A program made the position numbers and the translations under genes. Under the pieces are notes generated by a model. That model searched no databases, was not told the origin of the DNA, and was given only the letters and a program-made list of their open reading frames with translations. From positions 3,011,986 to 3,075,985 of the forward strand of contig OZ242027.1 of NCBI GenBank assembly GCA_965204865.1: a DNA stretch of 64,000 nucleotides. The letters are read 5' to 3'. Position 1 is the stretch's first letter, and each line of letters starts with the position of its first letter. Positions 9,272 through 34,879 of the stretch are shown in pieces. This DNA is from Dehalococcoidia bacterium (lineage in GTDB: Bacteria; Chloroflexota; Dehalococcoidia; Lucifugimonadales; UBA3495).

Positions 9272-9805
9272 TCAATCAGCGGGTTCGGACGGGTTCTCCA
9301 GGTCCAACATCGCCAGCAATCGCCCGTACCCGATGAACATTCCGGTAATCATCCCCAGCTCGAAAATCTCGGGATCGGTGAACTCCCGCCGCAGTTCCGC
9401 GAAGAACTCGTCGTCCACGTTCTGGTGATCGACGGACATACGCTCGGCGAAGCGGACGGCCAGCTTCTCCCTGTAGGGCAAATCGGTGTCCTCGAAGTGT
9501 ACGAGTGACGCCACCATTTCCTCGGTCATTCCCTGCTGCACCGCCGGCACAGCGCGACCCAGCTTTCAAGTGGCGCACTCGTTCAGCTCGGCAATCTTCA
9601 GCCGCACCAACTCCTTCAGCCGCGCGTCCAGCAGACCCTCCAGCTTCAGCGGCCCATAGAAGGCCCAGAACGCCTCATAGGCATCCGGCAGGTTGCCCGC
9701 CGCCTGGAATATCCGCGGGTTCAGCTTGTGCTCGGCTGCCGCCTTGGCGATTTTCTGCATTCCGGGCGTTAGCTGCTCGGTTGGCACCAGCTTAATCCGG
9801 GCCAT
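9272..9805 (-). CDS. carboxymuconolactone decarboxylase/AhpD-like protein, candidate selenoprotein (in-frame TGA at 9566..9568)
   Basis: ORFs 9566..9835 and 9272..9550 share one frame and are separated only by a TGA. The junction reads IAELNECAT-[TGA]-KLGRAVPAV, which is the family N-x-C-x-x-C motif with TGA on the second Cys. A hairpin follows about 20 nt downstream. Start ATG 9805 follows AAGGGG. Confidence 0.7.
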
Positions 9806-9822
9806 CTTTTTCCCCTTTTTAA

Positions 9823-9889
9823 CCACAGAGAGCACAGAGGACTCAGAGAGAATTTAAACAATACTCTGTGTTCTCCGTGCTCTCCGTGG
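9823..9889 (-). repeat. 27-28 nt inverted repeat built from CACAGAGNN 9-mers (intercistronic hairpin)
   Basis: CCACAGAGAGCACAGAGGACTCAGAGAG / ACTCTGTGTTCTCCGTGCTCTCCGTGG around a 12-nt loop. Two positions are G-U wobbles only in the minus-sense RNA. Confidence 0.7.
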
Positions 9890-9899
9890 TGAATTAACC

Positions 9900-11324
9900 C
9901 TACACTACCGGGCGGTCGGCCACCGCCGGGTCCACCTTGCGGCGCTGGAACCTCCCATCGCCGAGGGTGCCGTGGAAATTGCCGTCCTCCACAACCACCT
10001 TGCCCCGCAGGATGGTCATTACCGGCCAGCCCTCGACCTCGGTGCCTTCCCAGATGCTGTAGTCGGAGATGTGGAAGTCGTCCATGGTCAGCGTCTTCTT
10101 GATGCCGGGGTCTATCACGCAGATGTCGGCGTCACTGCCCGGGGCCAGCACGCCCTTCTGGGGCCACAGGCCCATAATCCTGGCGGCGTTGGCCGAGGTT
10201 ACGTCCACAAACCGTTGCAGGGTCATTCCCTGTTTCGACACGCCTTCGCTGTACGTAATGCCCATGCGAGCTTCGGCGCCGTTGTGGCCGCCGGTAGTAT
10301 CGGAGATGGTTCTGCCGGAAATTTTCGTCTCCCACGACGTGCAGTATTCGTCGGTCGCCATGGTCTGTAGGCCGCCGTTTATGATGCCGTCCCATAGCAT
10401 CTTCCGGTCGTCTTCCGACTTCAACGAGGGATAGGTATGGTACTTCATACCGTTCTCTTCCTTGTAGTTCTCTTCGTTGAAGCAGCAGTAGTTGTGCAGC
10501 GTCTCGCCGTAAATCGGGCGGCCATTGCGGCGGGCCTCCATGATGTTTCGAACGCCCTGCTGGGCGCTGACATGAACGAAGTAGATCGGAGAGCCGGTCC
10601 ACTCGGCCACCCGCAGCGTCCGCGTGAACGAGACATCCTCCGACTCCGCGCTGTGCACCTCCGACATATTGAACCACTCGGTGCGCTCTTCCCGCGTGAG
10701 CTTCTGATACATGTGCTGCACCATGTCGTCGTCCTCGGCGTGGACCAGCAGCATGGCGCTCAAGCGTTGAATCTCAGTCATCAGGTCGTGAAGATGGCCG
10801 GTGCCCACCATGCGGGGTTCGCCAGCGGTGGTGGGAGGGCGGATGTTGGTGGTGAATATCTTGACGCTGGCGAAGCCGTCCTCCACGAACTCGTGCAGGG
10901 AACCCAGGATGTTCTCGGGAATCTGCCCCAGCATCATCAGGTGGTGGGCGTAGTCGGAGTAAGAGTTCCCCTGCCATACCGCCGTGCGCTCTGCGATGGC
11001 CTGGGGAATGTCAATTCCAGGGTATTGGATGGCGAAGTCCATCAGGGTCGTAGTGCCGCCGAAGAGCGCGGCCCGGCTCACCTCCGGCGGGGGAGCGGTG
11101 GTAAGATTTCCGTGCCCCATGATGGGCGCGGAAATATGGGCATGGGGTTCGATGCCCCCTGGCACGACCACCTTGCCCGAAGCGTCAATAATCCGCCCCG
11201 CTTCGTCCCCCAGCGCCCCGGCCGCAGCCACCGCCACGATTCGTTCGCCCTGCACCGCCACATCCCAATCCCCTACCCCCATGGGGGTAACGACCTGCCC
11301 GCCGCGGATAATCAAGTCCAGCAT
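9900..11324 (-). CDS. dihydropyrimidinase/D-hydantoinase-type cyclic amidohydrolase
   Basis: N-terminal DLIIRGGQVV...GGIEPHAHI metal-binding HxH motif. 474 aa. Confidence 0.85.
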   Translation of the reverse strand: MLDLIIRGGQVVTPMGVGDWDVAVQGERIVAVAAAGALGDEAGRIIDASGKVVVPGGIEPHAHISAPIMGHGNLTTAPPPEVSRAALFGGTTTLMDFAIQYPGIDIPQAIAERTAVWQGNSYSDYAHHLMMLGQIPENILGSLHEFVEDGFASVKIFTTNIRPPTTAGEPRMVGTGHLHDLMTEIQRLSAMLLVHAEDDDMVQHMYQKLTREERTEWFNMSEVHSAESEDVSFTRTLRVAEWTGSPIYFVHVSAQQGVRNIMEARRNGRPIYGETLHNYCCFNEENYKEENGMKYHTYPSLKSEDDRKMLWDGIINGGLQTMATDEYCTSWETKISGRTISDTTGGHNGAEARMGITYSEGVSKQGMTLQRFVDVTSANAARIMGLWPQKGVLAPGSDADICVIDPGIKKTLTMDDFHISDYSIWEGTEVEGWPVMTILRGKVVVEDGNFHGTLGDGRFQRRKVDPAVADRPVV

Positions 11325-11444
11325 AAGAAAGCCCCCTGTCTCAGTTTTGGCTCAACCGCCGCTGATTTATGCGGCAGTTTAGCACACGACTGAGACCAGA
11401 GGGCTAGGCCACCCGATGCAAAGGCCCCAATAGGACCAGTGATG

Positions 11445-12851
11445 CTAATCCCCAGCCGCCGGCTGCGTCCTAGTGCCTTCCGTCTGTGCGGGTCGGGTTG
11501 CCTCCGCGGGCTGCGTCTGCGCCTCCGGCGGCAGTTCCTCCTCCCAGTCCGGCAGTTGGTGGTGGCGAGTGTTGGGCAGCGCGACGATGGACAGCACTCC
11601 AACCAGGCTCAGCACCAGCGACAGGCCCATAGTCGCGTCGAAGTTGCCGGTCCAGTCGCGGAGCCAGCCGCCGATCAGCGACCCCGCGGCCATGCCCACG
11701 CCCGCGCCCATCATCTGCCAGCCGTAGGTAGTGCCTATGGGCGCGCTGCCATAATACTGCCGGTTGATGATGGGGAAGGCGCTCATCTCGCCGCCGAACC
11801 CGATGCCGAACAGCACCGAGAACAGGTAGAAGTGCCAGGCGTCTGTGGAGAAGAACAGCAGCACGATGGGCAGGGTTTGCAGCGAGAAGCAGACGGCCAT
11901 CACACCCTTGCTGCCCACCCGGTCGGCCATAACCGGCACGGCGAACCGTGTCACCGTGCTGGTCACCGACAGGGTGACGAAGGCCCCCGCCGCCAGCCCC
12001 GGCGACACGCCCTCGGCCTCTGCGATGGCCACCAGGTAGACCAGCACGATGGCGTGTCCGGCGCAGCCCCAGAAGTGGATGCCGATGAGGTTCCAGAAGG
12101 CCAGGGTGCGCTGGGCCTGCTTGAAGAAGACCCGGGTGCGCAGCTTGGCTATCTCGCCCACCTGCATCTTGCGGACGGGCTCGTTTTCCGAAGCCCCCAG
12201 GGGACGCATACCAATCTGCGCCGGTTCGTCGTAGAAGAGCCGCACCAGCGCCAGGATCGCCACCCCGCCGATGATGCCGGGAACCCAGAAGGCAGCCCGC
12301 AGCCCCGGCAACCCGCCGCCGAACAGCGCGATGATCAGCAGCATTATCGGCACCGCCACCAGCGGGCCGACTCCCTGCGCCGACTGCAACAGGCCCATGC
12401 CGGTTCCCAGGTGCCGCTTGAACCACATGGTGACCGACGCCGTAAGAGGCACCTGGAAGATGCCCATGGAAGCGCTGAGGATGATCCCGAAGAAGAGATA
12501 GAACTGCCACAGATTGGTCATGAAGCCGGTCAGCACCATCCCGGCGATGAACAGGAAGGCGCCTATGGTCATGGTCACGCGGGCCCCGTAGCGGTCGCCC
12601 AGCCACCCGGCCGACGGCCCCAGCATTCCCGACACCACCCATTGCAGCGCAAACCCGAACCCCACCGCGCCATAGCTCCACCCGAAGGACTCCACCAACC
12701 GGGGAATCAGGATGCTGGACGACGAGCGGAAGGAGGAACTGAACAGCCGCATCACCGCCGCCACTCCCACGATTACCCAAGCATAATGCACCGGCCGCCC
12801 GGCGATAATCAGGTTGCTGAGGCGAAAGGAATACCGGGGAGCAGTTTCCAT
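11445..12851 (-). CDS. MFS transporter
   Basis: About 12 hydrophobic segments and the GWLGDRYGAR MFS loop 2-3 motif. The opposite-strand ORF 11439..12935 is a shadow. Confidence 0.85.
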   Translation of the reverse strand: METAPRYSFRLSNLIIAGRPVHYAWVIVGVAAVMRLFSSSFRSSSSILIPRLVESFGWSYGAVGFGFALQWVVSGMLGPSAGWLGDRYGARVTMTIGAFLFIAGMVLTGFMTNLWQFYLFFGIILSASMGIFQVPLTASVTMWFKRHLGTGMGLLQSAQGVGPLVAVPIMLLIIALFGGGLPGLRAAFWVPGIIGGVAILALVRLFYDEPAQIGMRPLGASENEPVRKMQVGEIAKLRTRVFFKQAQRTLAFWNLIGIHFWGCAGHAIVLVYLVAIAEAEGVSPGLAAGAFVTLSVTSTVTRFAVPVMADRVGSKGVMAVCFSLQTLPIVLLFFSTDAWHFYLFSVLFGIGFGGEMSAFPIINRQYYGSAPIGTTYGWQMMGAGVGMAAGSLIGGWLRDWTGNFDATMGLSLVLSLVGVLSIVALPNTRHHQLPDWEEELPPEAQTQPAEATRPAQTEGTRTQPAAGD

Positions 12852-13086
12852 ACGGTAAAGCCTTTATTCCCTATCCCCTCTCCCTCGAGGGGGAGGGTTA
12901 GAGCCTGCCCCTGCGAAGGCAGGGAGTGGGGATGAACGCAAAAGGGCATTATAGCCTAAACTCCCATTTTGCTATCAGCCTTGCAAGATTCTGCGCCAGC
13001 AAACCGGGGCTGACAACCCTCGGCGCTTTATCCTGGATTGGCCGCTCAGGGCCAACGCATTCTAATTGAAACCAGCATTGCGCCCT

Positions 13087-13143
13087 CCCGTCATTCCCGC
13101 GAAGCCTGCCCCCGCGGAGGCGGGGGGCGGGAATCCAAACCCC
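13087..13143. repeat. REP-like hairpin (variant A, reverse orientation, with nested insert)
   Basis: CCGTCATTCCCGCGAAG-[CCTGCCCCCGCGGAGGCGGGG]-GGCGGGAATCCAAACCCCC. The same nested form occurs at 54605..54662. Confidence 0.8.
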
Positions 13144-13417
13144 CGTGTTGCCCCGCGCCTGGCATTCCAGGAAGAGCCATCAACCTCCCCAGCCTTCTCT
13201 CACCTCTTTTCTCAATTGATGACCATTGCCCCTTGCGCAGTCCGGTGACGCCTCTCTAGCCTTATTTGCGTGAGAACCACAATACCCGCCGGAATGGAGC
13301 CTTCCTTTGACCCTCCGAAATACCCGACAAACCCCCCCGATTCACCAGGGGATACGGTTGCAAAGCCATGTCCATCCCCTTCATTCCCCCGCTGATGCCC
13401 AACCCGTCCAAAGCTGC

Positions 13418-13447
13418 AATGACCGAAAATGACTGGAAATGACCGGA
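13418..13447 (+). repeat. three tandem 10-bp units AATGACYGRA upstream of the 120-aa gene
   Basis: AATGACCGAA AATGACTGGA AATGACCGGA. A homologous triplet lies at 41142..41171 on the minus strand. Confidence 0.7.
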
Positions 13448-13490
13448 AAGTAAAAATTTCAACCCCAAGAACATCAGAGGAGGAATAAAG

Positions 13491-13853
13491 ATGTACTCCA
13501 TCAGCTACCTCCGGCGCCAGGTCGACGCCCTCCAGCGCAAACTCAAACCCGTCCTCGCCATCCTCAAACTCCGCAACCTCGCCATGCAATTCTGCGACGA
13601 GTTCGACGAAGCCGTCCTCAGCGAAAACCCCCGCCAGCGCGACCTCACCGGCATCTGCATGATGTTCCCGCCCCGGGTGGGACAGGCCGGCTTCCGCCTG
13701 GACAAAGGCCAAGAGCTGGTGCGCTACTTCCTGGGCTGCATCCAGAACAGGACCGGCCCCGAACCCCGCGAGGTCGTGTTCACCCTCATCCCCTGGGCCA
13801 GGAAAGGCCCCCTCCTCCGCGCCGACCTCTGGGAGCGCCCCAACGCCGCCTGA
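13491..13853 (+). CDS. hypothetical 120-aa protein (paralog copy 1)
   Basis: RBS GAGGAGG. About 96% nucleotide identity by eye to 40223..40585 (minus strand). No recognisable domain. Confidence 0.6.
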   Translation: MYSISYLRRQVDALQRKLKPVLAILKLRNLAMQFCDEFDEAVLSENPRQRDLTGICMMFPPRVGQAGFRLDKGQELVRYFLGCIQNRTGPEPREVVFTLIPWARKGPLLRADLWERPNAA

Positions 13854-13938
13854 CCGCCGCGATTGACAGTCGCCCCGCCCCAACTCTAAAATCGCCTCCA
13901 ACTGGACTAGTAAATTGCCAGCCCGAAGGAGGCCCAAA

Positions 13939-15126
13939 ATGCCCAGCTACCCGAAGGTAATCTACAAAGAAGAGGGTATGCGCGAGGGGATGCAAATCGA
14001 GGACGCCAACATCTCCGTTGACGACAAGATAGAGCTCCTCGACCAGCTTTCCGACACCGGCCTGAAGAACATCGTAGTCGGGTCTTTCGTCAGCCCCAAG
14101 TGGACCCCCCAGATGGAGCGCATAGACGAAATTCTCACCCGCTTCACCCCCAAGCCCGGCGTCACCTATACCGCCCTGGCCCTGAACTCCCGTGGCGTCG
14201 AGCGCGCCCGGCAGTACTCGCCGCCCCTGACCATCGAGCGCGACCCCTACCCCCGGCTCAGTTGCCACATGTGCGACGTCTTCACCCGCCGCAACACCAA
14301 CCGCTCCCAGATGCAGGAAATGGAAACCTGGCCGCAGAGAGTAGCCCAGGCCCAGGAACTCAACGTCAAGGAGGCCGGCATCGGCTGCAACGCCAGTTGG
14401 GGCTCCAACTTCCTCGGCGAGTTCCCGGTGGACAGCCTGATGACCCTGCTGGAGAAGGAACACGCCATGTGGGACGAGGTGGGCATCAACGTCCGCAGCG
14501 TCTCCATGGGCGACCCCATGAGCCACTGCACCCCGGCCAAGGTCGAGGAGAGCCTCTACCGGGTCAAGGAGCGCTGGCCCGACATTGACCACTTCCGCCT
14601 GCACCTGCACAACGGGCGCAACATGGCCATCGCCTCCGCCTACGCCGCCATGCGCACCCTCGGCCCCGACGACACCCTGGAGCTTGACGGCACCATCGGC
14701 GGCTTCGGCGGCTGCCCCTACTGCGGCAACGGGCGCGCCACCGGCATGGCCCCCACCGAAGACCTGCTCCACATGATGGAGGACATGGGCATCGAGACCG
14801 GCGTAGACATAGACAAGCTCATAGACTCCGTCTGGACCGCCGAGCGCATCATCGGCCGCGAGCTTTACGGCCACGTCTCCAAGGCCGGCCCCCGGCCCAA
14901 GACCGTGGACCAGCTCTACGACATGAACGCTCCCTTCATCGAGACCCTGGAAGAGGCCAGGCACTTCAAGAAGGGCCCCGAAGTCTACGAGGGCGGCATC
15001 TACCCCTACCGCGAGCCTATCACCAGCCCCTACCGCGAGCGCGTGGAAGCGGGCCTCCCGGCCTTCGACTCCGCCGAGGGCGACTTCCCTTGGAAGCAGG
15101 ACTGGTTCCCCTCCAAAGACGAGTAA
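13939..15126 (+). CDS. hydroxymethylglutaryl-CoA lyase-like (pyruvate carboxyltransferase/DRE-TIM) protein
   Basis: Trimmed to MPSYPKVIYKEEGMREGMQIED after GGAGG. Contains VGSFVSPKWTPQM and HLHNGRNMA motifs. Confidence 0.8.
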   Translation: MPSYPKVIYKEEGMREGMQIEDANISVDDKIELLDQLSDTGLKNIVVGSFVSPKWTPQMERIDEILTRFTPKPGVTYTALALNSRGVERARQYSPPLTIERDPYPRLSCHMCDVFTRRNTNRSQMQEMETWPQRVAQAQELNVKEAGIGCNASWGSNFLGEFPVDSLMTLLEKEHAMWDEVGINVRSVSMGDPMSHCTPAKVEESLYRVKERWPDIDHFRLHLHNGRNMAIASAYAAMRTLGPDDTLELDGTIGGFGGCPYCGNGRATGMAPTEDLLHMMEDMGIETGVDIDKLIDSVWTAERIIGRELYGHVSKAGPRPKTVDQLYDMNAPFIETLEEARHFKKGPEVYEGGIYPYREPITSPYRERVEAGLPAFDSAEGDFPWKQDWFPSKDE

Positions 15127-15249
15127 TTTCAGAGGAGCCTTCGGAGAATACGGCAACGCCGCCCGCGCCTGGACGGGCGGCGTTGCGTGTCGTCTATACC
15201 GGAGTACAATAGACCCATTGCTGAAACCTGAGACTGAGGAACCAAGGGG

Positions 15250-15891
15250 ATGTACAGCATTTACTACAATCGCACCACCCCCTTTCTCGCTTTCTTGGAA
15301 GGCATGGTGCGCGTCTTCGACTGGGGCACCCTTCTGGAGATTAGGAAGAGATGGCGCAAGGGTCAGTCGGAACCCGAATCAGATTCCCCGCAAGATAAGG
15401 AATGGAGCAACCGAATCGTTGACTGGTACATCCGCGACGCCATAGCCGCTTTTGAGAGAGCGGAATCTGTCAGGCTGGCCGAAGACCCGATGTTGTACCG
15501 CCGTTCCTTTGCCGTCGCCGATGTTCTTCTAGGCCCGCTGTCCACGCAGGAAGTCATTCTGCGGTACGAGGAAATGGTCGCGGGCGCCTGCGACAGGATT
15601 ATGAGCAGGGCCTCCGATAGGCTCGACCACGACGGCAAAGTCGAGCTTGAGTTGTTGAAGCAACGGGCCAGGCAGGGCTATTGGGGCATGGCTGTCGGGT
15701 TTATCTTGTCGCTGCTGCTGGCCGCCAGCGCCATGTACCTGCTTTTTTCCGGCAATGACTCGGCCGGATTCTCCATTGTTGGAGTCAATATAGCGATAGC
15801 GGTGTCCGTTTCGGTATACATCTCCAAGGCACAGGTGCGAAGGAAGTTGTACACCCGGGATTTCTTCTTGAGGAAGAGGCGCAAACTCTAA
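15250..15891 (+). CDS. DUF2335-like membrane protein
   Basis: Lower-GC gene. The soluble N-half is followed by two C-terminal TM helices after LLKQRARQGYWGMAVGFILSLLL, resembling DUF2335 architecture. Confidence 0.45.
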   Translation: MYSIYYNRTTPFLAFLEGMVRVFDWGTLLEIRKRWRKGQSEPESDSPQDKEWSNRIVDWYIRDAIAAFERAESVRLAEDPMLYRRSFAVADVLLGPLSTQEVILRYEEMVAGACDRIMSRASDRLDHDGKVELELLKQRARQGYWGMAVGFILSLLLAASAMYLLFSGNDSAGFSIVGVNIAIAVSVSVYISKAQVRRKLYTRDFFLRKRRKL

Positions 15892-15917
15892 CCGAACCGC
15901 GAAAATACAGGAGGCCA

Positions 15918-16496
15918 ATGATGACCTCGGCTAATCCCGTTGACCCCAACAGCATCCGGCTCACCGGCGAAAACTCCTTCATCCGTTTGGTGGAGGACGG
16001 AGAACAGACCACCCGCACCAGCCATTGGCGCGTCCTGTACTCACCCGGTGGCGCAGGACACGTGCTGTTCATCAAGAGCGACCTGGTGGATGGAGTCCGC
16101 ATCTATGCCGACAACATCGCCCTAGCCCGCTGGCTGCAAGAAGAAATCGAGAGTCTCCTGTTCCCGGAGTTCGCCGACCAGTCCATACAGGTCATTGACG
16201 CCGAGTTCAGCAGGAAGGGCGACACCTATACCTTCTGGACGGAGACCATCGAGACCGACGACGACCAGATTACCCTGACCTGGCACGACTTCCTGGAACC
16301 GTTCATGCTCACCGTCCCAGCCGGCAGCGCCCCGGGCCGTCCCCACGGCGTATACAGTTGCTTCATCCCGTCCCGCTCCGGCCGGGTAACCATCAACGGC
16401 GACGACGCCGACGGCCAAGTCGCCCTCGAAATGCGCGGCGAAAAGCAGAGCAGCACCGCCTGCCTGGCCTGGTCCGAGACCTGGGTGCGCCCGTAA
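15918..16496 (+). CDS. hypothetical protein
   Basis: 192-aa ORF with coding-like codon bias. No recognisable motif. Confidence 0.5.
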   Translation: MMTSANPVDPNSIRLTGENSFIRLVEDGEQTTRTSHWRVLYSPGGAGHVLFIKSDLVDGVRIYADNIALARWLQEEIESLLFPEFADQSIQVIDAEFSRKGDTYTFWTETIETDDDQITLTWHDFLEPFMLTVPAGSAPGRPHGVYSCFIPSRSGRVTINGDDADGQVALEMRGEKQSSTACLAWSETWVRP

Positions 16497-16626
16497 GGTG
16501 GCTGCGGGTAAACTCAGGCACACCGAAAAGGAATGGCGAAATTATGGATGCCCCGACGATAGCCGCCCTTACCTTGGTGGCGGGTGCTTGGCTTGGCGCC
16601 CAATCTTTTCAGGAGAATGGGACCGC

Positions 16627-17304: not shown

Positions 17305-17368
17305 TGACCTTCTCCTGAACGGCGGCGATTCAGTGACGACCGTAAAACCCTGGCCAGTGGTTGATGAG

Positions 17369-18538: not shown

Positions 18539-18592
18539 TTGTACGCCCTCACCCTGACCCTCTCCCAGAGGGAGAGGGGATTTCTTAATGGA

Positions 18593-21701: not shown

Positions 21702-21707
21702 CTCGCC

Positions 21708-26246: not shown

Positions 26247-26366
26247 GGGAGTTCCATCCGGGTCGAGTTGGCTATCGGCGTCCCCACCAGCGCATTATAC
26301 TTGGGTCATAAGAAGTCGTCTTTGCCTTGCTGTCAGTCACTATCACTGTTTTTGGAGGAGACTACT

Positions 26367-27248: not shown

Positions 27249-27341
27249 GAGTTGCACAAGACGAAGCGAAACCCGTCTGTCCTTCGACAAGCTCAGGATG
27301 AACGAATTTCTCTGTGTCCAGCACGTGTGAAATTCCTTTTT

Positions 27342-28799
27342 CTACCGTCGCAGCGCCGCCCGCAGCGAGTACGACTGCGGCGAAATCGCCAGCCCGAACA
27401 CCTCGTCCTCCGGCAGCGGGTTGCCGTCCGGCCTCTCGAAGCGCAGCTTGTGCAGCATCCGGGTGATGTGCAGCCAGACCGTGGTTTCGGCGAAGCGGCG
27501 GCCGGGGCAGCGGCGGTGGCCGGTGCCGAAGGGGATGTAGGCCGGGCTGGTCAGCACGGGCGACATCGAGCCGTCAGGTTGGGGCAGGAATCGCTCCGGG
27601 ATGAACTCGTCGGGCGCGTCCCAGTAACGCGGGTTGTGGTGGATGGAGTAGATGTTGCCCAGGACCTGGGTTCTCGCCGGTATCCGGTAGCCGCCGATTT
27701 CCGTGTCCTCTGAGGCCATGTGCGGCAGGCCCAACGGGCCGATGGTGCGGTAGCGCATGGACTCGGCCAGGCAGGCGAAGGTGTAAGGCAAGCGCGTCCG
27801 GTCGTCCACTGTGGGCAGGGCGTCGTGGCCGATGACGCTATCCAGTTCCTCGTGGACTCTGGCCTGAATCTCCGGGCGGTTGGCCAGCAGCAACAGGAAC
27901 CAGTTGACCGTCTGCGCCGAAGTGTCGGTGCCGGCGATGAGCAAGTCCATGCATAGGTCGCAGGTCATGTCGTTGGTGATTTCGCCTGATTCCTCTCTGG
28001 ACAGCATCACCTCCACCAGGCAGGTGGGCGCCGAAAGGTCGAGACCGGGGCGGTTGCGGGCGGCTTCCACCAGGTCGCGGATGAGGGCTCCGCCGATTTC
28101 CGCCTGCCGAACGGCTTCCTTCAAGGCATTGCTGGGCAGGAGACGCAGCCAGGGGATGTAGTCAGCCAGGTTGGTGGCGGTGGCGCTGGCGAAAATGAAG
28201 TTGATATAGTCCAGCAGCGTATCCCGTTGTTGCAGGAACTCCGCGGTGTCGTCATCTTCCCGCCCGAAGACGGAGCGGAACATCAGCAGGGAGTTGCTGC
28301 GGGCCGTCATCACCATGGGCAGAACCGGCTCGCCGGCGTCGCCGTGCCGGGCCATTTGCTCCACTAGGCTGTTCACCACCCGCTCGATGTGCTGCTCGCG
28401 GACGTTATCAATGTTGCGGGCGCTCAACAGTTCCCGGTTGGCGAAGCGCTGCATCTGCCGCCAGTGGTCGCCGTAAGGGGCCATCACCAGGTCTTTCTGC
28501 CCGCTGAGGGCGTTCATAATTTCGCTGACCCAGCGATCGGCCAGTTCGGTCTTGCCGAAGGCGTCCTGCAACATTTCCGCGTTGCTGATTATCACTGTCG
28601 GCACGCTGCCGAAGCGCATCAGGCAGATGTCGCCGTAGCGCCGGGCCAGCCGGTCGATGGCGAGGTGAGTGTCGTGGCGTATCTCCAGCAGTGAGCCGAA
28701 CACAGGCATGCCGCGCGGACCCGGAGGCAGATTTTTGGGTAGAGTGGTAGTTACGGCGCTCATCTGTGCCACCTCTTCACGAAACACGGGGTGATTCAA
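27342..28799 (-). CDS. cytochrome P450
   Basis: Heme loop FGTGHRRCPGRRFAE and ExxR (ESMRYR). TTG start at 28799, or ATG at 28763. Confidence 0.85.
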   Translation of the reverse strand: MNHPVFREEVAQMSAVTTTLPKNLPPGPRGMPVFGSLLEIRHDTHLAIDRLARRYGDICLMRFGSVPTVIISNAEMLQDAFGKTELADRWVSEIMNALSGQKDLVMAPYGDHWRQMQRFANRELLSARNIDNVREQHIERVVNSLVEQMARHGDAGEPVLPMVMTARSNSLLMFRSVFGREDDDTAEFLQQRDTLLDYINFIFASATATNLADYIPWLRLLPSNALKEAVRQAEIGGALIRDLVEAARNRPGLDLSAPTCLVEVMLSREESGEITNDMTCDLCMDLLIAGTDTSAQTVNWFLLLLANRPEIQARVHEELDSVIGHDALPTVDDRTRLPYTFACLAESMRYRTIGPLGLPHMASEDTEIGGYRIPARTQVLGNIYSIHHNPRYWDAPDEFIPERFLPQPDGSMSPVLTSPAYIPFGTGHRRCPGRRFAETTVWLHITRMLHKLRFERPDGNPLPEDEVFGLAISPQSYSLRAALRR

Positions 28800-28803
28800 T
28801 AGG

Positions 28804-28839
28804 AAAACCCCCTCCTCTCCACTTTAACAAAGGAGGGGG
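28804..28839 (-). terminator. putative intrinsic terminator downstream of the GMC oxidoreductase gene
   Basis: Minus-sense CCCCCTCCT-N14-AGGAGGGGG followed by TTTT. Confidence 0.45.
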
Positions 28840-28918
28840 CCATGCAACAGGGGCAATTTCGTAATGCGGCCACCGTCGCACCATAATCCGGCGCAATAGT
28901 GAGCGAGAACTGCGACTT

Positions 28919-30463
28919 CTACCCGCCCTTGATGATGTCCGACATCCGCTCGGCAATCATTATGGTGGTGCAGTTGGTGTTGGCGCGGATGCAGTCGGGC
29001 ATTACCGAGGCGTCAATGACACGCAGGTTTTCCAAGCCCTTGACCCGGCACTGTTGGTCAACGACGGCCATGGGGTCGCTGTCCGGCCCCATCTTGCAGG
29101 TGCCGGAGATGTGCTGCGAAGTGGTGACGTTGCGCATCAGCCAGTTGTCCAGCGCCTCGTCCGACTCCAGGTCGGAAGGCAGTGGCTCGAGCAGCCCCTT
29201 CACGATGTCGGCGTAGTCGGGGTGGTCGAGGAAGCCCACGCAGAGCCGCACGGCCTCGCGCATCCGGGCTAGGTCGCGGGGGTCGTCGGCGAAGTAGTTG
29301 TAGTTCAGCTCCGGCTGCACGTTGGGATCAGTAGACGTGATGGTCAGGTGGCCCTTGCCGTAGGCCAGCTCCAGGATGCAGGTGAAGCGGATGCCCTCGG
29401 CCTCCAGCGGGTCGCCGGAGATGGGCGACGAGAAGGACGACGCCATAATCTGGATGTCGTTGCGCAACTCGGAGCCAGTGGCGGTGTAGCGCAGCGCCAC
29501 CTGGGTGCGCGGGTCCTGCGGGTTCAGAGGGAAGTCCTCCTTAACCTCGATGGGCACGCGGATGTTGGGATGGTCGCGCAGGTTCTGGCCGATGCCGGGG
29601 GTGTCCTGCACCACCGGGATGCCGAACTTTTCCAGCGTGGCCGCCGGGCCGACCCCGGACAGCATCAGTATTTGCGGCGAGGCGATGGCCCCGGAGCAGA
29701 GGATGATTTCCTCGCCCTCGACGGTGAACCGCTCGCCGCCGCTCTCCACCTCGGCCCCAATGGCCTTTTTGCCGTCGAACAGCACGCGGTGAACGGTGAC
29801 GTTGGCCTTGACCGTCAGGTTCAGGCGGTGGCGGGCGGCGCCAAGGAAGGTCAGGGAGGTGCTCATCCGCACGCCGTTGGGGTTGTTCATCGGGATGGGG
29901 CCGACTCCGCCCGATTCAGGGTGATTCATGTCCGGGTCATCGGGGAATCCTGCGGTGCGGGCGGCGTTGTAGAACGCCTGCTGCGCCGGCAGCCAAGTCT
30001 CCCGCGCGAAGCGGCGCACCGGGATGAAGCCGTCGGAGTTATGAAAGTCGTCGGCCCCGAAGTCCATGTCGCTTTCCAGCTTGCGCAGGTAGGGCAGGAC
30101 GCTGGTGAAGCCCCACTGGTCGTTGCCCAGGGCGGCCCAGGCGTCGTAATCCTCGGGCACGCCGCGCAACAGCACCTGGCCGTTGATGGCGCTGGAGCCA
30201 CCCACCACCCGGCCCCGCGGCACCGGCATCGGCTCGGTCTGCAACGGCGTGGTGTTGCCCTGGAAGGACCAGTTGTGTGGCGCGTCAATGGCCGATGCGG
30301 TCTGGTCATAGCCAAACTTCAGGTCGTCGGGGTAGGTCTCGAAGTCCGGGTAGTCCGGCCCGGCCTCCAGCAGCAGGACGGACTTGGAGGGATCTTCCGA
30401 CAACCGGCTGGCCATAGTGCAGCCGGCGGAGCCTGCGCCGAGGATGATGTAGTCGTATTTCAT
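28919..30463 (-). CDS. GMC family oxidoreductase (choline dehydrogenase-like)
   Basis: MKYDYIILGAGSAGC FAD motif and GGSSAINGQV. 514 aa. Confidence 0.85.
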   Translation of the reverse strand: MKYDYIILGAGSAGCTMASRLSEDPSKSVLLLEAGPDYPDFETYPDDLKFGYDQTASAIDAPHNWSFQGNTTPLQTEPMPVPRGRVVGGSSAINGQVLLRGVPEDYDAWAALGNDQWGFTSVLPYLRKLESDMDFGADDFHNSDGFIPVRRFARETWLPAQQAFYNAARTAGFPDDPDMNHPESGGVGPIPMNNPNGVRMSTSLTFLGAARHRLNLTVKANVTVHRVLFDGKKAIGAEVESGGERFTVEGEEIILCSGAIASPQILMLSGVGPAATLEKFGIPVVQDTPGIGQNLRDHPNIRVPIEVKEDFPLNPQDPRTQVALRYTATGSELRNDIQIMASSFSSPISGDPLEAEGIRFTCILELAYGKGHLTITSTDPNVQPELNYNYFADDPRDLARMREAVRLCVGFLDHPDYADIVKGLLEPLPSDLESDEALDNWLMRNVTTSQHISGTCKMGPDSDPMAVVDQQCRVKGLENLRVIDASVMPDCIRANTNCTTIMIAERMSDIIKGG

Positions 30464-30525
30464 GCTTGTCTCCTTTTGTTAATGCTCCCTCTCCCTTTGG
30501 GAGAGGGTTGGGGTGAGGGCGTCCC

Positions 30526-31236
30526 CTAACCCTTCAGGTGAGCGTTGAAGAACTCTATCGTCCGGGGCCAGGACGCTTCCGACGCTTCCTGCTGGTGGCG
30601 CAGCCCGGTGTAGTCCATGAAGGCGTGATCGGCCCCCGGATAGGTGTGGAATTCATGCGCCACACCCAATCGGCCTAGCTCGGCGTCCAGCTTGTCCCGG
30701 TCCTCGAGGGACGGGTTCTCGTCTATTTCGCCAAAGTGGAACAGCACCGGGCACTGGATGCCGGAGGCCAGCTCGAAGGGCGTCTGCTCCCCGGCGCCCC
30801 AGGTGACGAAGATGTTGCCACCGTAGTAGGGGGCGCAGGCGCGGATGTGGCGGTTGGTGGCCGCGCCCAGCCAGGCGACCCGCCCGCCCATGCAGAAGCC
30901 AGTGATGCCGATGCGCTCGCCCTGAATGGCCGGATGGGCCCGCAGCCAGTCCACCGTGGCCCCGATGTCCGCCACTATATCCGGGTCGCTCATGTGCTGG
31001 ATGCGGCCGGTGCGATTGTCCAGTTGCTCCTCGGTGAAACGGTGGAACAGGTTGGGCGCGACGGCGGCAAACCCGGCCTCGGCCAGCTTGTCGGCCATGT
31101 CGCGGATGAACTGGTCCACGCCGCCGCCGTGCTGGCTGACGATGACCGCCGGGAACGGGCCGCCCCCGCTGGGCACGCTGGCGTAGACGTGCATATCGAG
31201 TCCGCCCACGGGTATTGTTTCCCAGAATGAAGCCAT
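30526..31236 (-). CDS. dienelactone hydrolase family protein
   Basis: Nucleophile elbow GITGFCMGG and the C-terminal YPGADHAF motif. Confidence 0.8.
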   Translation of the reverse strand: MASFWETIPVGGLDMHVYASVPSGGGPFPAVIVSQHGGGVDQFIRDMADKLAEAGFAAVAPNLFHRFTEEQLDNRTGRIQHMSDPDIVADIGATVDWLRAHPAIQGERIGITGFCMGGRVAWLGAATNRHIRACAPYYGGNIFVTWGAGEQTPFELASGIQCPVLFHFGEIDENPSLEDRDKLDAELGRLGVAHEFHTYPGADHAFMDYTGLRHQQEASEASWPRTIEFFNAHLKG

Positions 31237-31435
31237 CTCTTCCCTCCGTCAGATGGTATAGCTAATCTGGCGCATTATCTCCCAGCTACGAGATTACGCT
31301 GTCTGTGATGATGTGCTATCCGCGCATTTGCGACAGATTATAGCCCAGCAGAGCGTTGTCAACAAAACGCAGCATCTGCCGTTTCACGCTCTCACGTGGT
31401 AGGATACCGCCAACACTCGAATGGAGGTAAGCGGT

Positions 31436-32203
31436 ATGGCCATGGACGTTCAGGTCTATACCCAGCCTGGTTGATTCAGTTGCCGGACTCTGGAAGAGTT
31501 CCTAAAGTCCAACGGCGTTCCTTACGAACATCACGACCTGCTCAGCGAACCCGCCGCGGTGGAGCATCTGCGCAGCCGGGGCATCAAGTCGCTGCCAGTC
31601 ACCATCATTGATGACACCGAGATCATCATCGGCTATTACCCCAAGAAGCTGATACCGGCTCTGAAGCTGGACGTGTCCGTTGACCTGTCGGGCAAGACCG
31701 CGTGGCTGGCCGAGAAGTACGACGCCATAATGAGCGCGGCGGTACGGGCCAACAACCAGTTCAGCCAGGAACAACTCGACGCCATCGTGCCGTGGCGGCC
31801 TTGGAGTCTGCGTGACACGGTGGTTCACATCCTGGCCTTCCCGGAGATCGCCTACCTGTCCCACGAGGTGGGCAGCATGAGCTGGGACGATATGCAAGCC
31901 CAGGACAAGCGGCTGGAGGGCGTCACCACCGCGCCGCAGATTGCCGAGTACGGCCTACAGGTTCGGGACGACATCATCGCCTTCCTGGACAGCGGCAACA
32001 CCGAGGGCTTCGAGCGCGTGGTGCCGGCCCACTACGGCGGCGAGGTCACGGTGCTAGAACTGCTCAACATCGTGCTGAGCCACAGCACCCACCACCTCAA
32101 GCAGGTCTACCACTACATGACCACTGACCTGGGCATGACCCCGGACAACCCGGCCACCGACGCCGACCTGGAAGGCATCCAGACGCCGGACGCGCTGATT
32201 TAG
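31436..32203 (+). CDS. glutaredoxin-like / DinB-like fusion protein, candidate selenoprotein (in-frame TGA at 31472..31474)
   Basis: The frame of ORF 31559..32203 is open back to ATG 31436 (GGAGGT 7 nt upstream) except for one TGA. The N-terminus MAMDVQVYTQPG-[TGA]-FSCRTLEEFLKSNGVPYEHHDL matches the NrdH/Grx CxxC region. The C-terminal HSTHHLKQV is DinB-like. A hairpin lies 17 nt after the TGA. Confidence 0.7.
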
Positions 32204-32254
32204 GCTTAACCGCAGAGAACGCAGAGGGCAAGGAGCATTTGGGGAGGTAAAGCG

Positions 32255-32452
32255 ATGGCAAAAGTCGGCAAGGAGGTTCTGGTAGCGGTTCAGGACGCTT
32301 TGGAACAGTACGAGCAAGAGGTTCAAGATGCCGAGGAATCCGGCTTTTTAACGGAGCAGACCAAGAAAACTTACCTGCTCCACGCCAAGCACTTCGTCCG
32401 CTGGCTCGACGACGACTTCGAACCCGGCGGACGGGGAAAAAACAACAGATAA
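32255..32452 (+). CDS. small hypothetical protein
   Basis: 65-aa lower-GC ORF bracketed by inverted CRCAGAG-type repeats. RBS GGGGAGG lies upstream. Confidence 0.35.
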   Translation: MAKVGKEVLVAVQDALEQYEQEVQDAEESGFLTEQTKKTYLLHAKHFVRWLDDDFEPGGRGKNNR

Positions 32453-32510
32453 TAATCTCCGTGTTCTCTGTGCGCTCTGTGTTGAATCCGTCTCCTGTAA
32501 GGAGGGAAAT

Positions 32511-34058
32511 ATGAAGTATGACTACATCGTGATTGGCGCCGGTTCCGCCGGCTCAATCATCGCCACGCGGCTGACCGAGGACCCCAATGTCTCGGTGCTG
32601 CTGCTGGAGGCTGGGCCGGACTACCCCGACTTCGAGCGGCTGCCCGAAGAGGTCAAGTTCGGCTACTCCACCGAAATAGACATCATGGTCAGCGACCATA
32701 ACTGGCAGTTCATCGGCAAGGCGACGGAGAGCGCCCCGCCGATGATGGTGCCGCGCGGCAAGGTCACCGGCGGCTCCAGCGCCATCAACGGCCAAGTGTT
32801 CCTGCGCGGCGTGCCCGAGGACTACGATTCCTGGGCGGAGATGGGCAACGACGAGTGGAAGTACACCGACTGCCTGCCCTACTTCCGTAAGCTGGAGACC
32901 GACAGCGACTTCTCCGACGACTTCCACGGCACCGACGGCCCCATCGTGTGCCACCGATTCAAGCCGGAGACTTGGCACCCGGCGCAGACGGCCTTCTACC
33001 AAGCCTGCCGCGAGGCCGGGTTCCCGGACAGCCCAGACCACAACAACCCGGAATCTACCGGCGTCGGCCCCACGCCCTTCAACAACCCCGGCGGCGTACG
33101 CATGAGCACCGCCCTGGGCTATCTGGATCAGACGCGCCATCGTCTCAACCTAACCATCCGAGCCAATTGCCACGTGCAGAAGATTCTGTTCGAGGGCAAC
33201 CGGGCCGTCGGCGCGTGGGTAGAGAGCGGGGGCGAGGTCTTTACCGTCGAGGGCAACGAGATAATCCTCAGCTCCGGCGCCATCGGCTCGCCGCATATCC
33301 TCCTGCTGTCGGGCGTCGGCCCGGCGGCGCACCTGCAAGAGCATGGCATCCCGGTGGTGGCCGACCTGCCCGGCGTGGGCCAGAATATGCGCGATCATCC
33401 CTTGGTCTGGGTGACCTGGCGCACCAGGCCGGAGGTGCCGCTGGACGGCCTGGCTCCCCGGATGCAGGTGACGCTGCGCTACACCGCCGACGGCTCGCCC
33501 CTGCGCAACGACATGAAGATGTCCATGCAGTCCTTCGCCACCGAGCGCATCAATCGGGGCGGCGACCGGATGGAGCCGGTGGGCATCCGCCTGACCAGCG
33601 GCATCCAGCTCGCGGCGGGCGCGGGCGAACTGCGGCTCAACTCTGCCGACCCTTCGCAGCAGCCATTCCTCGACTACCGCTACTTGGAAGACCCCTTCGA
33701 CCTGGAGCGGCTGCGGGAGACGGTGCGCCTCTGCGTCAAGCTGGGCGAGAGCGACGCCTTCAAGGACATCATCCAGGAGCGCATCGAACCCACCGACGAC
33801 GAACTGGCGACGGACGAGGCCTTGGACGAGTACCTGTTCCGCGAGGTGACCACCTCGCAGCACATATCCTGCACCGCCAAGATGGGATCGGCCGACGACC
33901 CCATGGCCGTGGTCAGCCAGTACGGCAAGGTGCACGGGCTGGAGGGCCTGCGGGTGGCCGACGCCTCCATAATGCCCGACTGCATCCGCGCCAACACCAA
34001 CGTGACCACGATGATGATCGGCGAGCGGGTGGCGGAGTTCATCAAGGCGGGGAAGTAG
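32511..34058 (+). CDS. GMC family oxidoreductase (paralog of 28919..30463)
   Basis: MKYDYIVIGAGSAGS FAD motif. Aligns along its full length with the other GMC gene. Confidence 0.85.
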   Translation: MKYDYIVIGAGSAGSIIATRLTEDPNVSVLLLEAGPDYPDFERLPEEVKFGYSTEIDIMVSDHNWQFIGKATESAPPMMVPRGKVTGGSSAINGQVFLRGVPEDYDSWAEMGNDEWKYTDCLPYFRKLETDSDFSDDFHGTDGPIVCHRFKPETWHPAQTAFYQACREAGFPDSPDHNNPESTGVGPTPFNNPGGVRMSTALGYLDQTRHRLNLTIRANCHVQKILFEGNRAVGAWVESGGEVFTVEGNEIILSSGAIGSPHILLLSGVGPAAHLQEHGIPVVADLPGVGQNMRDHPLVWVTWRTRPEVPLDGLAPRMQVTLRYTADGSPLRNDMKMSMQSFATERINRGGDRMEPVGIRLTSGIQLAAGAGELRLNSADPSQQPFLDYRYLEDPFDLERLRETVRLCVKLGESDAFKDIIQERIEPTDDELATDEALDEYLFREVTTSQHISCTAKMGSADDPMAVVSQYGKVHGLEGLRVADASIMPDCIRANTNVTTMMIGERVAEFIKAGK

Positions 34059-34327
34059 GGGGAGGGCTATTGTCTCCCCCATTTTCATAGGTAAACACAC
34101 CGGAAAGGGAGTCGGCAATGTCTCTATTTCTGATTTCGGCTATGGGGTTTCTGTATCACAGGCTGTTGAGGAGGCGTACTTCCCCTCCGCCTTCGTACTG
34201 CCGCCACTACCTGACCCATCAGCCGGTAAAGATGGTGGACTAACAGGTTTCCCAAGAGGCACTGCCAAGCACACTAAGGCCGCGGACCTTTCGCCCCGTG
34301 GCCTTACGTTTTCTGCCTGATCCGCTG

Positions 34328-34879
34328 TCAGGTTCGTGGCGTCATCAGCCAGTCCTGGCTCTTGGCATCCTCGCTCATCCACTGGGAGTAGGATTCCTGG
34401 CGGCCCGCAGGCGGCTCCACGCCGAGGCTGTCGGCGAGGCGGGTCATGAAGTTGAAGTTGCAGGTTATCAGTACGGTGGACAGTATCTGCTCATCGCTGA
34501 GTCCGTGGTTTCGCAGCCGCTGCACGTCGGACTGGGTCATGGCGGCGGGCGTGCGCGTCAGCTTGGCGGCGAAGTCCAACATCGCGCGGGTCTGAGGGTC
34601 GAGTTCGGCTTGGGTGTAGTCGTGCATCATATGGCTGGCCAGTTCCGGGTTGTCCGAATGGTCACGGAGGAACCCCCCGTGAGCCATGGTTCAATAGCGG
34701 CAGTGGTTGGTGGCCGAAACCACAGTGGCAATGGCTTCCTCCTGCACCCTGGTCAGGGCGGATGCGCCGAAGGTGACCGCCATGTTCAGCCGCTGCACAG
34801 CCTCCATCGCCTGGGGCTGAATCGACATTATCTTGATGACTTCCGGCAGATTGACTTCTTCTTCACGAATCCAGGCCAT
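34328..34879 (-). CDS. AhpD-family peroxidase-related protein, candidate selenoprotein (in-frame TGA at 34691..34693)
   Basis: ORFs 34691..34879 and 34328..34687 share one frame. The junction is VSATNHCRY-[TGA]-TMAHGGFL, which is the N-x-C-x-Y-C-x-x-x-H motif with TGA on the second Cys. A hairpin begins 5 nt after the TGA. AGGAG lies 7 nt before ATG 34879. Confidence 0.7.

What the first reader, a model, noticed from the sequence alone, without database searches (positions are those of the whole stretch)
9272..34879. Three Sec-recoding candidates within 25 kb, none with sel genes nearby
All three split genes share the same logic. The TGA lies on a redox Cys of a thioredoxin-fold or AhpD-fold protein. 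A hairpin apex lies 15-21 nt downstream with G-rich loops (GGC, UGGAA, GGGGUUCCU). Each reading frame is restored to normal family length. Three independent coincidences of this kind are unlikely. The organism therefore probably maintains a redox selenoproteome that standard ORF callers (and the supplied track) fragment. No selA/selB/selD/tRNA-Sec is visible in this window.
Basis: inference. Interest (0 to 1): 0.65.

Follow-up and report, generated by a model that had tools for sequence, protein, structure and literature searches.

The report
Three selenocysteine genes in a Dehalococcoidia genome
Three redox-enzyme genes in this window are each interrupted by a TGA that is almost certainly read as selenocysteine, which is real but expected for this group of marine and sponge-associated Chloroflexi, already catalogued as selenoprotein-rich.

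Summary
The three genes are:
- a CMD/AhpD-fold gene (9805->9272, minus strand; TGA 9566-9568; motif C-A-T-U);
- a glutaredoxin-DinB fusion (31436-32203, plus strand; TGA 31472-31474; motif U-F-S-C);
- a TIGR01926 AhpD-like gene (34879->34328, minus strand; TGA 34691-34693; motif C-R-Y-U).

In each gene the TGA aligns with a redox Cys of solved or Cys-type homologs.

The TGA is kept in every related sequence fetched: 80/80, 47/47 and 20/20 loci, down to 33-60 % protein identity. For genes 1 and 3, dN/dS is about 0.05-0.15 on both sides of the codon.

Each TGA is followed by a conserved hairpin with a small G-first loop starting 21-24 nt from the U. The hairpin of gene 3 shows a GC/AU/CG compensatory pair.

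The window has no sel genes and no tRNA. A complete SelB gene lies on the same contigs as TGA-bearing orthologs of gene 3 in three related Dehalococcoidia genomes. A 2026 database lists two genomes that carry this ortholog among the ten largest bacterial selenoproteomes.

AhpD-like, CMD and Grx selenoproteins have been known since 2005. Only the Grx-DinB fusion looks undescribed as a selenoprotein. Sec machinery in this genome itself could not be checked.

The parts
9272..9805 (-). Gene 1: CMD/AhpD-fold selenoprotein, 177 aa, motif N-E-C-A-T-U. Its stop TGA (9272-9274) overlaps the ATG of the downstream glyoxalase/VOC gene (TGATG).
9566..9568 (-). In-frame TGA of gene 1 (Sec codon), aligned to the second Cys of CxxC
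   Evidence: TGA in 47/47 related loci; Cys in P0280 and in PDB homologs
9535..9553 (-). SECIS-like hairpin of gene 1: 8-bp stem GCUGUGCC/GGUGCAGC, loop GGC at nt 24-26 from the U
   Evidence: 98.8 % of cells paired in 32 distinct sequences; only wobble-to-Watson-Crick changes
31436..32203 (+). Gene 2: glutaredoxin-like domain (U13-F-S-C16, cis-Pro54) fused to a DinB_2 domain (His131/His216/His220), 255 aa
31472..31474 (+). In-frame TGA of gene 2 (Sec codon), aligned to the first Cys of CxxC
   Evidence: TGA in 13 close loci and 7 distant loci; PGCSSC in Cys-type homologs
31482..31516 (+). SECIS-like hairpin region of gene 2. Two registers are possible: nt 14-20/24-30 with a GGA loop, or nt 14-18/35-39 plus 21-24/28-31 with a GAG loop.
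34328..34879 (-). Gene 3: AhpD-like (TIGR01926 peroxidase-related) selenoprotein, 183 aa, motif N-H-C-R-Y-U-T-M-A-H
34691..34693 (-). In-frame TGA of gene 3 (Sec codon), aligned to the second Cys of CxxC
   Evidence: TGA in 80/80 related loci where the motif was found; Cys in 2pfx and 3c1l
34659..34686 (-). SECIS-like hairpin of gene 3: conserved 7-bp core (nt 14-20 with 24-30) and a GUU triloop; in this clade it is extended by a lower stem
   Evidence: 98.5 % paired in 78 sequences; pair 20-24 is GC 43 / AU 25 / CG 6

Best explanation
The three TGAs are selenocysteine codons.

Mechanism (inferred): while the ribosome translates each mRNA, a hairpin starting about 10-15 nt after the UGA binds the Sec-specific elongation factor SelB, carrying GTP and Sec-tRNA(Sec). 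SelB delivers Sec to the UGA in competition with release factor 2.

Products:
- two AhpD/CMD-fold thiol-selenol oxidoreductases with a C-x-x-U centre (genes 1 and 3);
- a glutaredoxin-like U-x-x-C domain fused to a DinB/YfiT-type four-helix, His-triad domain (gene 2). This is most likely a thiol-transferase-type enzyme with its own selenol redox arm.

Shown here: the in-frame TGA at the redox Cys position, its strict conservation, coding constraint on both sides (genes 1 and 3), conserved hairpins, and SelB in related genomes.

Inferred: actual Sec insertion, the presence of selA/selB/selC/selD in this genome, and the enzymatic roles.
For: Conservation of the TGA:
- Gene 3: TGA in all 80 related loci where the motif was located. 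These are GTDB species representatives plus two ENA contigs, all Dehalococcoidia / SAR202 / Chloroflexota, 59-96 % identical.
- Gene 1: TGA in 47/47 loci.
- Gene 2: TGA in 13 close loci and 7 distant loci at 33-64 % identity.

Coding constraint on both sides:
- Gene 3 versus L003: upstream dN 0.00, dS 0.64; downstream dN 0.013, dS 0.41. Values are similar throughout.
- Gene 1: dN/dS about 0.06-0.15 in both halves.

Fragmented gene calls: public gene calls break at exactly this codon. There are more than 100 clusters of 119-aa fragments for gene 3. For gene 1, N-terminal fragments end at NECAT.

Cys at the same position:
- in solved structures;
- in distant family members.

Hairpins:
- Gene 3: 98.5 % of cells paired; pair 20-24 switches GC/AU/CG; 0/500 shuffles reach the observed score.
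- Gene 1: 98.8 % paired; fourfold-degenerate sites inside the stem are invariant.
- Gene 2: 83-88 % paired, with 4-5 pairs changed on both sides.
- Chance control: 8.7 % per TGA.

TGA still works as a stop: it ends about 17 % of ORFs, including genes 1 and 3 themselves.

SelB in relatives: a full SelB (620 aa, Pfam GTP_EFTU + Beta-barrel_SelB + WHD_2nd/3rd_SelB) lies about 8 kb from the gene 3 ortholog in L044 and L049/L085. In L071/L142 it lies on the same 2.47-Mb contig.

Literature:
- AhpD-like, CMD and Grx are established CxxU/UxxC selenoprotein families (PMC1088965, PMC2398784, PMC13188914).
- Dehalococcoidia UBA1141 (= L023) has 49 selenoprotein genes and isolate 10f4566d (= L025/L029) has 46 (PMC13326102).
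Against: - No selA, selB, selD or tRNA-Sec lies in the 64-kb window. The window's genome is not in the look-up collections.
- SelB was not recovered for the closest clade (L003-L015). None of the 120 listed SelB clusters matches those contig lengths.
- Hairpin folding energies are not significant individually.
- Gene 1's hairpin shows no two-sided compensatory change.
- The register of gene 2's hairpin is unresolved.
- No Rfam SECIS model matches.
- Gene 1 has Arg where AhpD-type proteins have the His after CxxC, so its chemistry may differ.
Confidence: 0.93

Rival explanations
1. The UGA is recoded but not to Sec. It could be read as Cys by a tRNA-Sec-like tRNA(Cys) using the same hairpin and a SelB-type factor, or as Trp/Cys by near-cognate read-through.
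For: Sequence alone cannot tell which residue is inserted. No selA/selD was seen in any locus fetched, only SelB. Cys-inserting tRNA-Sec look-alikes have been reported in some bacteria (from memory, not checked here).
Against: - The families are classical Sec/Cys pairs.
- Strict maintenance of TGA rather than TGC/TGT in 147 related loci is hard to explain if Cys were the product.
- Related genomes are listed in a database restricted to species with the Sec pathway.
Confidence: 0.04
2. The TGAs are true stops, and each locus makes two separate polypeptides or only the downstream one. This is how automatic gene callers annotate them.
For: Gene callers produce 62+119 aa and 79+98-134 aa pairs. 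A Met or Val start lies shortly after the TGA in genes 1 and 3.
Against: - The split falls inside the CxxC active-site motif of a single compact domain.
- Gene 2 would lose its first beta strand and its nucleophile.
- Both halves of genes 1 and 3 evolve under equal constraint in one frame.
- No ribosome-binding site is needed to explain the downstream part.
- The hairpin is conserved beyond what the protein sequence requires.
Confidence: 0.02
3. The genes are pseudogenes, or the TGAs are sequencing or assembly errors.
For: A few database homologs show R, W, L or G at the position. Two metagenome copies of gene 1 carry a later frame disruption (L132, L133).
Against: - The same TGA is seen in 147 independent loci from many assemblies and sequencing technologies.
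- dN/dS is far below 1.
- The W-type database entries checked are in fact TGA translated with another code (L136, L141).
Confidence: 0.01

Closest known systems
AhpD-like selenoprotein (TIGR01926 / COG2128, CxxU), first described from the Sargasso Sea and GOS metagenomes
   Same: Gene 3 passes the TIGR01926 cut-off (127.9 vs 81.8 bits). It has N-x-C-x-Y-U-x-x-x-H with Sec on the second Cys, a SECIS-type hairpin and a G-first small loop. The family is listed as CxxU in PMC2398784, PMC1088965 and PMC13188914.
   Different: Nothing essential. Among sequences above 50 % identity no genuine Cys form was seen, so this subfamily looks Sec-only. It is not a member of the related NCBIfam model NF041238 (65.5 vs 175 bits).
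CMD domain-containing selenoprotein (PF02627, CxxU)
   Same: Gene 1 passes the Pfam CMD cut-off and has C-x-x-U at the AhpD-type motif. The family is listed in PMC1088965 and PMC13188914.
   Different: Arg replaces the His that follows CxxC in AhpD-type enzymes. It is far below the cut-offs of the curated selenoprotein models NF053654 (65 vs 310 bits) and NF041047. It sits in an apparent operon with an amidohydrolase and a glyoxalase-fold protein.
Selenoprotein glutaredoxin / Grx-like (PF00462, UxxC)
   Same: The N-terminal domain of gene 2 has the thioredoxin-fold order (beta1, then U-x-x-C at the start of helix 1, then cis-Pro) with Sec on the nucleophilic first Cys.
   Different: It is fused to a DinB_2 domain. 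No curated NCBIfam model covers it; the best is TIGR02196 at 54.5 vs 88.55 bits, and the UXX-star models are all below cut-off. 'DinB' does not occur in the two 2026 surveys of bacterial selenoproteins.
DinB/YfiT family (for example B. subtilis YfiT 1rxq, D. radiodurans DR0053 6iz2)
   Same: The C-terminal domain matches Pfam DinB_2. The model of a Cys-type family member superposes on 6iz2 (TM 0.85) and 2p1a. Three His are conserved.
   Different: Known DinB/YfiT structures are single-domain. No solved structure matched both domains together; only GSTs gave loose two-domain matches, with rmsd above 12 Å.
E. coli fdhF SECIS / SelB mechanism
   Same: A hairpin lies directly 3' of the UGA inside the coding sequence, with a small apical loop starting with G at a fixed distance. 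From textbook knowledge, G23/U24 of fdhF; here the loop G is at nt 21-24. SelB with its C-terminal winged-helix domains is present in the lineage.
   Different: The loops are triloops (GUU, GGC, GGA/GAG) and the stems are short. No bulged U was identified. SelB stands alone, not next to selA, in the relatives seen.

Membership tests
Bacterial selenoprotein gene (Sec-UGA + SECIS) | In-frame UGA aligned with Cys (or Sec) in homologs | tested here: met
Bacterial selenoprotein gene (Sec-UGA + SECIS) | UGA conserved in orthologs, with coding constraint both upstream and downstream | tested here: met
   80/80, 47/47 and 20/20 related loci keep TGA. dN/dS is about 0.05-0.15 on both sides for genes 1 and 3. 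Gene 2 has only 12 upstream codons, but its ATG and GGAGG are conserved.
Bacterial selenoprotein gene (Sec-UGA + SECIS) | Stem-loop just downstream of the UGA with a small apical loop containing G | tested here: met
   Covariation is clear for gene 3, one-sided only for gene 1, and the register is ambiguous for gene 2.
Bacterial selenoprotein gene (Sec-UGA + SECIS) | selA, selB, selC (tRNA-Sec) and selD in the same genome | not testable with these tools
   None lies in the window. The genome is not on record. SelB was found in three related genomes on the same contigs as gene 3 orthologs.
Bacterial selenoprotein gene (Sec-UGA + SECIS) | Selenium physically present in the protein | not testable with these tools
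   Needs 75Se labelling or mass spectrometry
AhpD-like, TIGR01926 peroxidase-related enzyme (gene 3) | Score above the curated cut-off, and the C-x-x-C-x-x-x-H motif | tested here: met
   127.9 bits vs 81.8. C-R-Y-U-T-M-A-H aligned to CFYCLVAH of 2pfx.
CMD, PF02627 (gene 1) | Score above the Pfam gathering cut-off | tested here: met
   30.5 vs 23 bits
AhpD catalytic motif (gene 1) | His four residues after the second Cys of CxxC | tested here: not met
   Arg aligns with that His (C-A-T-U-K-L-G-R vs C-L-Y-C-A-V-S-H)
NF053654 YciW-related (seleno)protein / NF041047 GSU3128 family (gene 1) | Score above the NCBIfam cut-off | tested here: not met
   65.1 vs 310 bits and 16.7 vs 110 bits
Glutaredoxin PF00462 (gene 2, N-terminal domain) | Pfam cut-off, CxxC at the start of helix 1, cis-Pro | tested here: met
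   40 vs 22.9 bits. U13-F-S-C16 aligned to CPHC. Pro54 is invariant in 37 family members.
DinB_2 PF12867 (gene 2, C-terminal domain) | Pfam cut-off, four-helix bundle, conserved His triad | tested here: met
   40.9 vs 24.8 bits. His131, His216 and His220 are invariant or nearly so. The fold of a Cys-type homolog matches 6iz2 and 1rxq; the window protein itself was not modelled.
UXX-star glutaredoxin-like selenoproteins (NF041212, NF041211, NF041114, NF047338) | Score above the NCBIfam cut-off | tested here: not met
   35.5 vs 66, 27.1 vs 100, 16.3 vs 72 and 17.8 vs 97 bits

The most novel reading that the evidence does not exclude
The glutaredoxin-DinB fusion with U-x-x-C may be an undescribed selenoprotein family. 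It would be a DinB/YfiT-type thiol transferase carrying its own selenol redox domain, with Sec forms spread across at least 33-96 % identity and a separate Cys clade.

A second unexcluded reading concerns stop codons. This clade's strong preference for TAG over TGA stops (about 60 % vs 11-17 % at 62 % GC) could be a genome-wide adaptation to heavy UGA recoding.
Probability: 0.3. Interest if true: 0.45.

Novelty: new member of a known kind. Interest (0 to 1): 0.3.

Why it matters
The practical point is annotation. Standard gene callers cut all three genes in two. Public protein databases hold hundreds of such fragments: more than 100 clusters for gene 3 alone, plus entries with W, G or R at the Sec position; of these, only two W-type entries (from the Grx-DinB family, gene 2) were checked and proved to be TGA.

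The biological point is modest. It adds one more Dehalococcoidia/SAR202-type genome to a lineage already known to be selenoprotein-rich. It places Sec enzymes next to oxidative catabolic genes (P450, two GMC oxidoreductases, dienelactone hydrolase, amidohydrolase), which suggests a role in handling peroxides or reactive intermediates of that metabolism.

The Grx-DinB fusion would be a small addition to the list of selenoprotein families.

Tried and rejected
- Exact look-ups of two window proteins found nothing, so the source genome is not in the collection.
- Single-sequence folding energies gave no significant z-scores, so I did not rely on them.
- Rfam gave no hit at gathering thresholds, and nothing useful at E <= 10 around genes 2 and 3.
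- tblastn with E. coli SelA, SelB and SelD against the window and 82 related loci found only SelB, in L044 and L049. ARAGORN found no tRNA-Sec among 28 tRNAs in those loci or near SelB.
- I tried to locate SelB of the closest clade by matching the 'longest contig' column to known contig lengths. It worked for L049 and L071 (860491 and 2472542 bp) but not for L003-L015.
A Cys-type family member was modelled instead, so the domain contact around Sec13 was not examined.
- A search for a fourth selenoprotein gene found none. It covered composition on both sides of every TGA, redox motifs next to TGA, genes preceded or followed by TGA, and gaps in the gene map.
- I considered TGA reassignment (code 4 or 25) and rejected it. 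TGA ends about 17 % of ORFs, and in-frame TGAs occur only at the three redox sites.
Full report
**What is there**

The window is 63 % GC. A scan for in-frame TGAs whose flanks both look like coding sequence picked out two sites, 9566-9568 and 34691-34693, both on the minus strand. Extending genes upstream through a preceding TGA gave the third, 31472-31474 on the plus strand.

- Gene 1 runs from ATG 9805 to the stop at 9272-9274 and encodes 177 residues. It matches Pfam CMD.
- Gene 2 runs from ATG 31436 (preceded by GGAGG) to 32203 and encodes 255 residues. It has a glutaredoxin domain followed by a DinB_2 domain.
- Gene 3 runs from ATG 34879 to 34328 and encodes 183 residues. It passes the curated cut-off of TIGR01926, 'peroxidase-related enzyme' of the AhpD family.

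The start and end coordinates of the finding are the ends of genes 1 and 3.

**The TGA falls on the redox cysteine**

Aligned to solved structures:
- Gene 3 reads N-H-C-R-Y-U-T-M-A-H against N-K-C-F-Y-C-L-V-A-H of 2pfx.
- Gene 1 reads N-E-C-A-T-U against N-R-C-L-Y-C of 2oyo.
- Gene 2 reads Y-T-Q-P-G-U-F-S-C against Y-T-S-N-T-C-P-H-C of glutaredoxin 7c10 and Y-T-Q-P-D-C-P-P-C of 3zij.

Fourteen full-length members of the Grx-DinB family, 24-28 % identical, carry P-G-C-S/T-S-C at the same place. A distant homolog of gene 1 has C-A-L-C (P0280).

**Conservation of the TGA**

A protein search with gene 3 returned more than a hundred clusters of 119-residue proteins. They start at the Met two codons after the TGA and are 64-95 % identical. 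This is the signature of a gene that callers cut at the same point everywhere.

A scan of one genome per bacterial species then gave 80 loci, all from Dehalococcoidia, SAR202 or unclassified Chloroflexota assemblies. In 78 of them, and in two ENA contigs, the motif was located, and the codon is TGA in every case.

For gene 1, one ENA contig and 46 marine metagenome contigs all have TGA. Database fragments end at N-E-C-A-T or begin just after it.

For gene 2, 13 close relatives keep the TGA, the ATG and the ribosome-binding site. Seven more distant loci, 33-64 % identical and including a low-GC organism, also have TGA before F-S/T-C.

Database entries from the Grx-DinB family (gene 2) that show W at the position turned out to be TGA translated with another code where I checked them (L136 and L141 do not translate to the stored protein under table 11).

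**Both halves are one coding frame**

Between the window and L003, the 48 codons before the TGA of gene 3 have dN 0.00 and dS 0.64. The 100 codons after it have dN 0.013 and dS 0.41. The pattern holds out to 60 % identity. Gene 1 gives dN/dS of roughly 0.06-0.15 in both halves.

This excludes pseudogenes. It also makes two independent polypeptides very unlikely, since the break lies inside the active-site motif of a single domain.

**Hairpins**

Each TGA is followed by a hairpin. The folding energies alone are unremarkable (z between -0.3 and -1.3). By a simple rule set, 8.7 % of all TGA triplets in the window have a comparable hairpin.

The comparative data are stronger:
- Gene 3: a 7-bp stem (nt 14-20 with 24-30, counting the U of UGA as 1) closed by a GUU triloop is paired in 98.5 % of cells across 78 distinct sequences. 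Pair 20-24 is G-C in 43, A-U in 25 and C-G in 6. These changes go with the amino-acid changes Gly/Glu/Ala and the codon changes TTC/TTT/TTG. No shuffle of 500 reaches the observed score.
- Gene 1: an 8-bp stem with a GGC loop at nt 24-26 is paired in 98.8 % of cells. The only changes turn U·G or G·U into Watson-Crick pairs. Fourfold-degenerate sites inside the stem are invariant while those just outside vary freely.
- Gene 2: the hairpin region is invariant in the close clade while neighbouring codons change synonymously. I cannot choose between them.

The loops begin 21-24 nt from the U. This is the same range as the G23/U24 of E. coli fdhF (textbook knowledge).

**Sec machinery**

The window holds no tRNA, no Rfam family and no homolog of E. 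coli SelA, SelB or SelD.

The same tblastn run found a full-length SelB in L044 and the start of one in L049, about 8 kb from their TGA-bearing copies of gene 3. The protein has the Pfam architecture GTP_EFTU, Beta-barrel_SelB, WHD_2nd_SelB and WHD_3rd_SelB. A further SelB lies on the same 2.47-Mb contig as the gene 3 ortholog of L071.

SelB of the closest clade (L003-L015) was not recovered. It was presumably too divergent to appear among the 120 clusters listed. No SelA, SelD or tRNA-Sec was seen in any locus.

**Known or new**

AhpD-like (CxxU), CMD-domain (CxxU) and glutaredoxin (UxxC) selenoproteins were described from the Sargasso Sea in 2005. They were counted in hundreds in the GOS data, where AhpD-like 1 was the fourth most abundant family. 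All three are listed in a 2026 review.

A 2026 database paper ranks Dehalococcoidia bacterium UBA1141 (49 genes) and isolate 10f4566d-ab44-49ae-b774-fc9f760c6436 (46 genes) among the ten largest bacterial selenoproteomes. Both carry the gene 3 ortholog in my set (L023; L025 and L029).

The one part I could not find described is the fusion of the Sec-glutaredoxin domain to DinB:
- No NCBIfam model reaches its cut-off.
- 'DinB' is absent from both 2026 surveys.
- A literature search gave nothing relevant.

The family is small: 178 representatives at E <= 0.001 in 1.8 billion proteins. A high-confidence model of a Cys-type member (pLDDT 95.5) shows a thioredoxin fold joined to a DinB/YfiT four-helix bundle, with no two-domain counterpart in the PDB.

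**Context**

Gene 1 lies between an amidohydrolase and a glyoxalase-fold gene, whose ATG overlaps its stop (TGATG), downstream of an MFS transporter. Gene 2 is followed on the same strand by a GMC oxidoreductase. Gene 3 converges on that pair. Nearby are a dienelactone hydrolase, a second GMC oxidoreductase, a P450 and a short-chain dehydrogenase. The arrangement of genes 2 and 3 is shared by the 13 closest species.

**Verdict**

It is a new member of known kinds, of low to moderate interest. Two small open leads remain: the Grx-DinB selenoprotein and the unusual stop-codon usage.

Noticed in passing
whole window; loci L003-L082: TAG is by far the commonest stop codon. In the window it is 66 % of 41 long coding-like ORFs, with TGA at 17 %. 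In the closest clade TAG is 59 % and TGA 11 %. In other Dehalococcoidia loci TAG is 43 % and TGA 30 %. This is unusual at about 62 % GC, where TGA normally dominates. A possible link to heavy UGA recoding was not tested (a literature search found nothing).
   Followed up: partly
window 9270-9275 (minus strand): The stop of gene 1 overlaps the start of the glyoxalase/VOC gene (8799-9272) as TGATG. This suggests translational coupling in an amidohydrolase / CMD-selenoprotein / VOC operon. In relative L088 the downstream neighbour is different: a DUF5615/DUF433 pair.
   Followed up: partly
window 9542-9544 (codon after K-L-G in gene 1): Gene 1 and all its orthologs have Arg where AhpD-type proteins have the His of C-x-x-C-x-x-x-H. 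There is also a weak match (E 0.016) to the CMD-family debrominase Bmp8, PDB 6ohi.
   Followed up: no
window 13443-13853 (+) and 40223-40618 (-): Two paralogous genes of about 131-136 aa share almost the same C-terminus (PWARKGPLLR[A/P]DLWERP[N/A]AA). Both end in TGA. The copy tested has no Pfam match.
   Followed up: no
P0001, P0002, P0014, P0033-P0044 (homologs of gene 3); P0305, P0384, P0392 (gene 2): 'Full-length' database proteins carry R, W, L, G or T at the Sec position. The W cases checked are TGA read with another genetic code. The 50-55 % identical group with G (C-R-Y-G-A-M-T-H-G-G) was not checked at the DNA level and may be a real Gly subfamily.
   Followed up: partly
L085 11920-12420, L086 11920-12420, L142 11891-12394: A conserved ORF of 166-167 aa without any Pfam match follows selB directly, on the same strand, in three Dehalococcoidia contigs. 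selB is not next to selA in any of them.
   Followed up: no
L132 and L133 (metagenome copies of gene 1): These two copies keep the Sec TGA but lose the frame about 48 codons later. They are either truncated variants or assembly errors.
   Followed up: no
L142 6592-7326 (minus strand): Two adjacent same-strand ORFs (94 and 140 aa) without Pfam hits lie near selB. They could be another gene split by a Sec codon.
   Followed up: no
window 27342-39968: This stretch is a dense cluster of oxidative enzymes: P450, two GMC oxidoreductases, dienelactone hydrolase and a short-chain dehydrogenase. By synteny with L001 it also includes a cyclase, an FAD monooxygenase and a luciferase-like monooxygenase. 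The closest genome record is a Chloroflexi MAG named SB0662_bin_29.
   Followed up: partly
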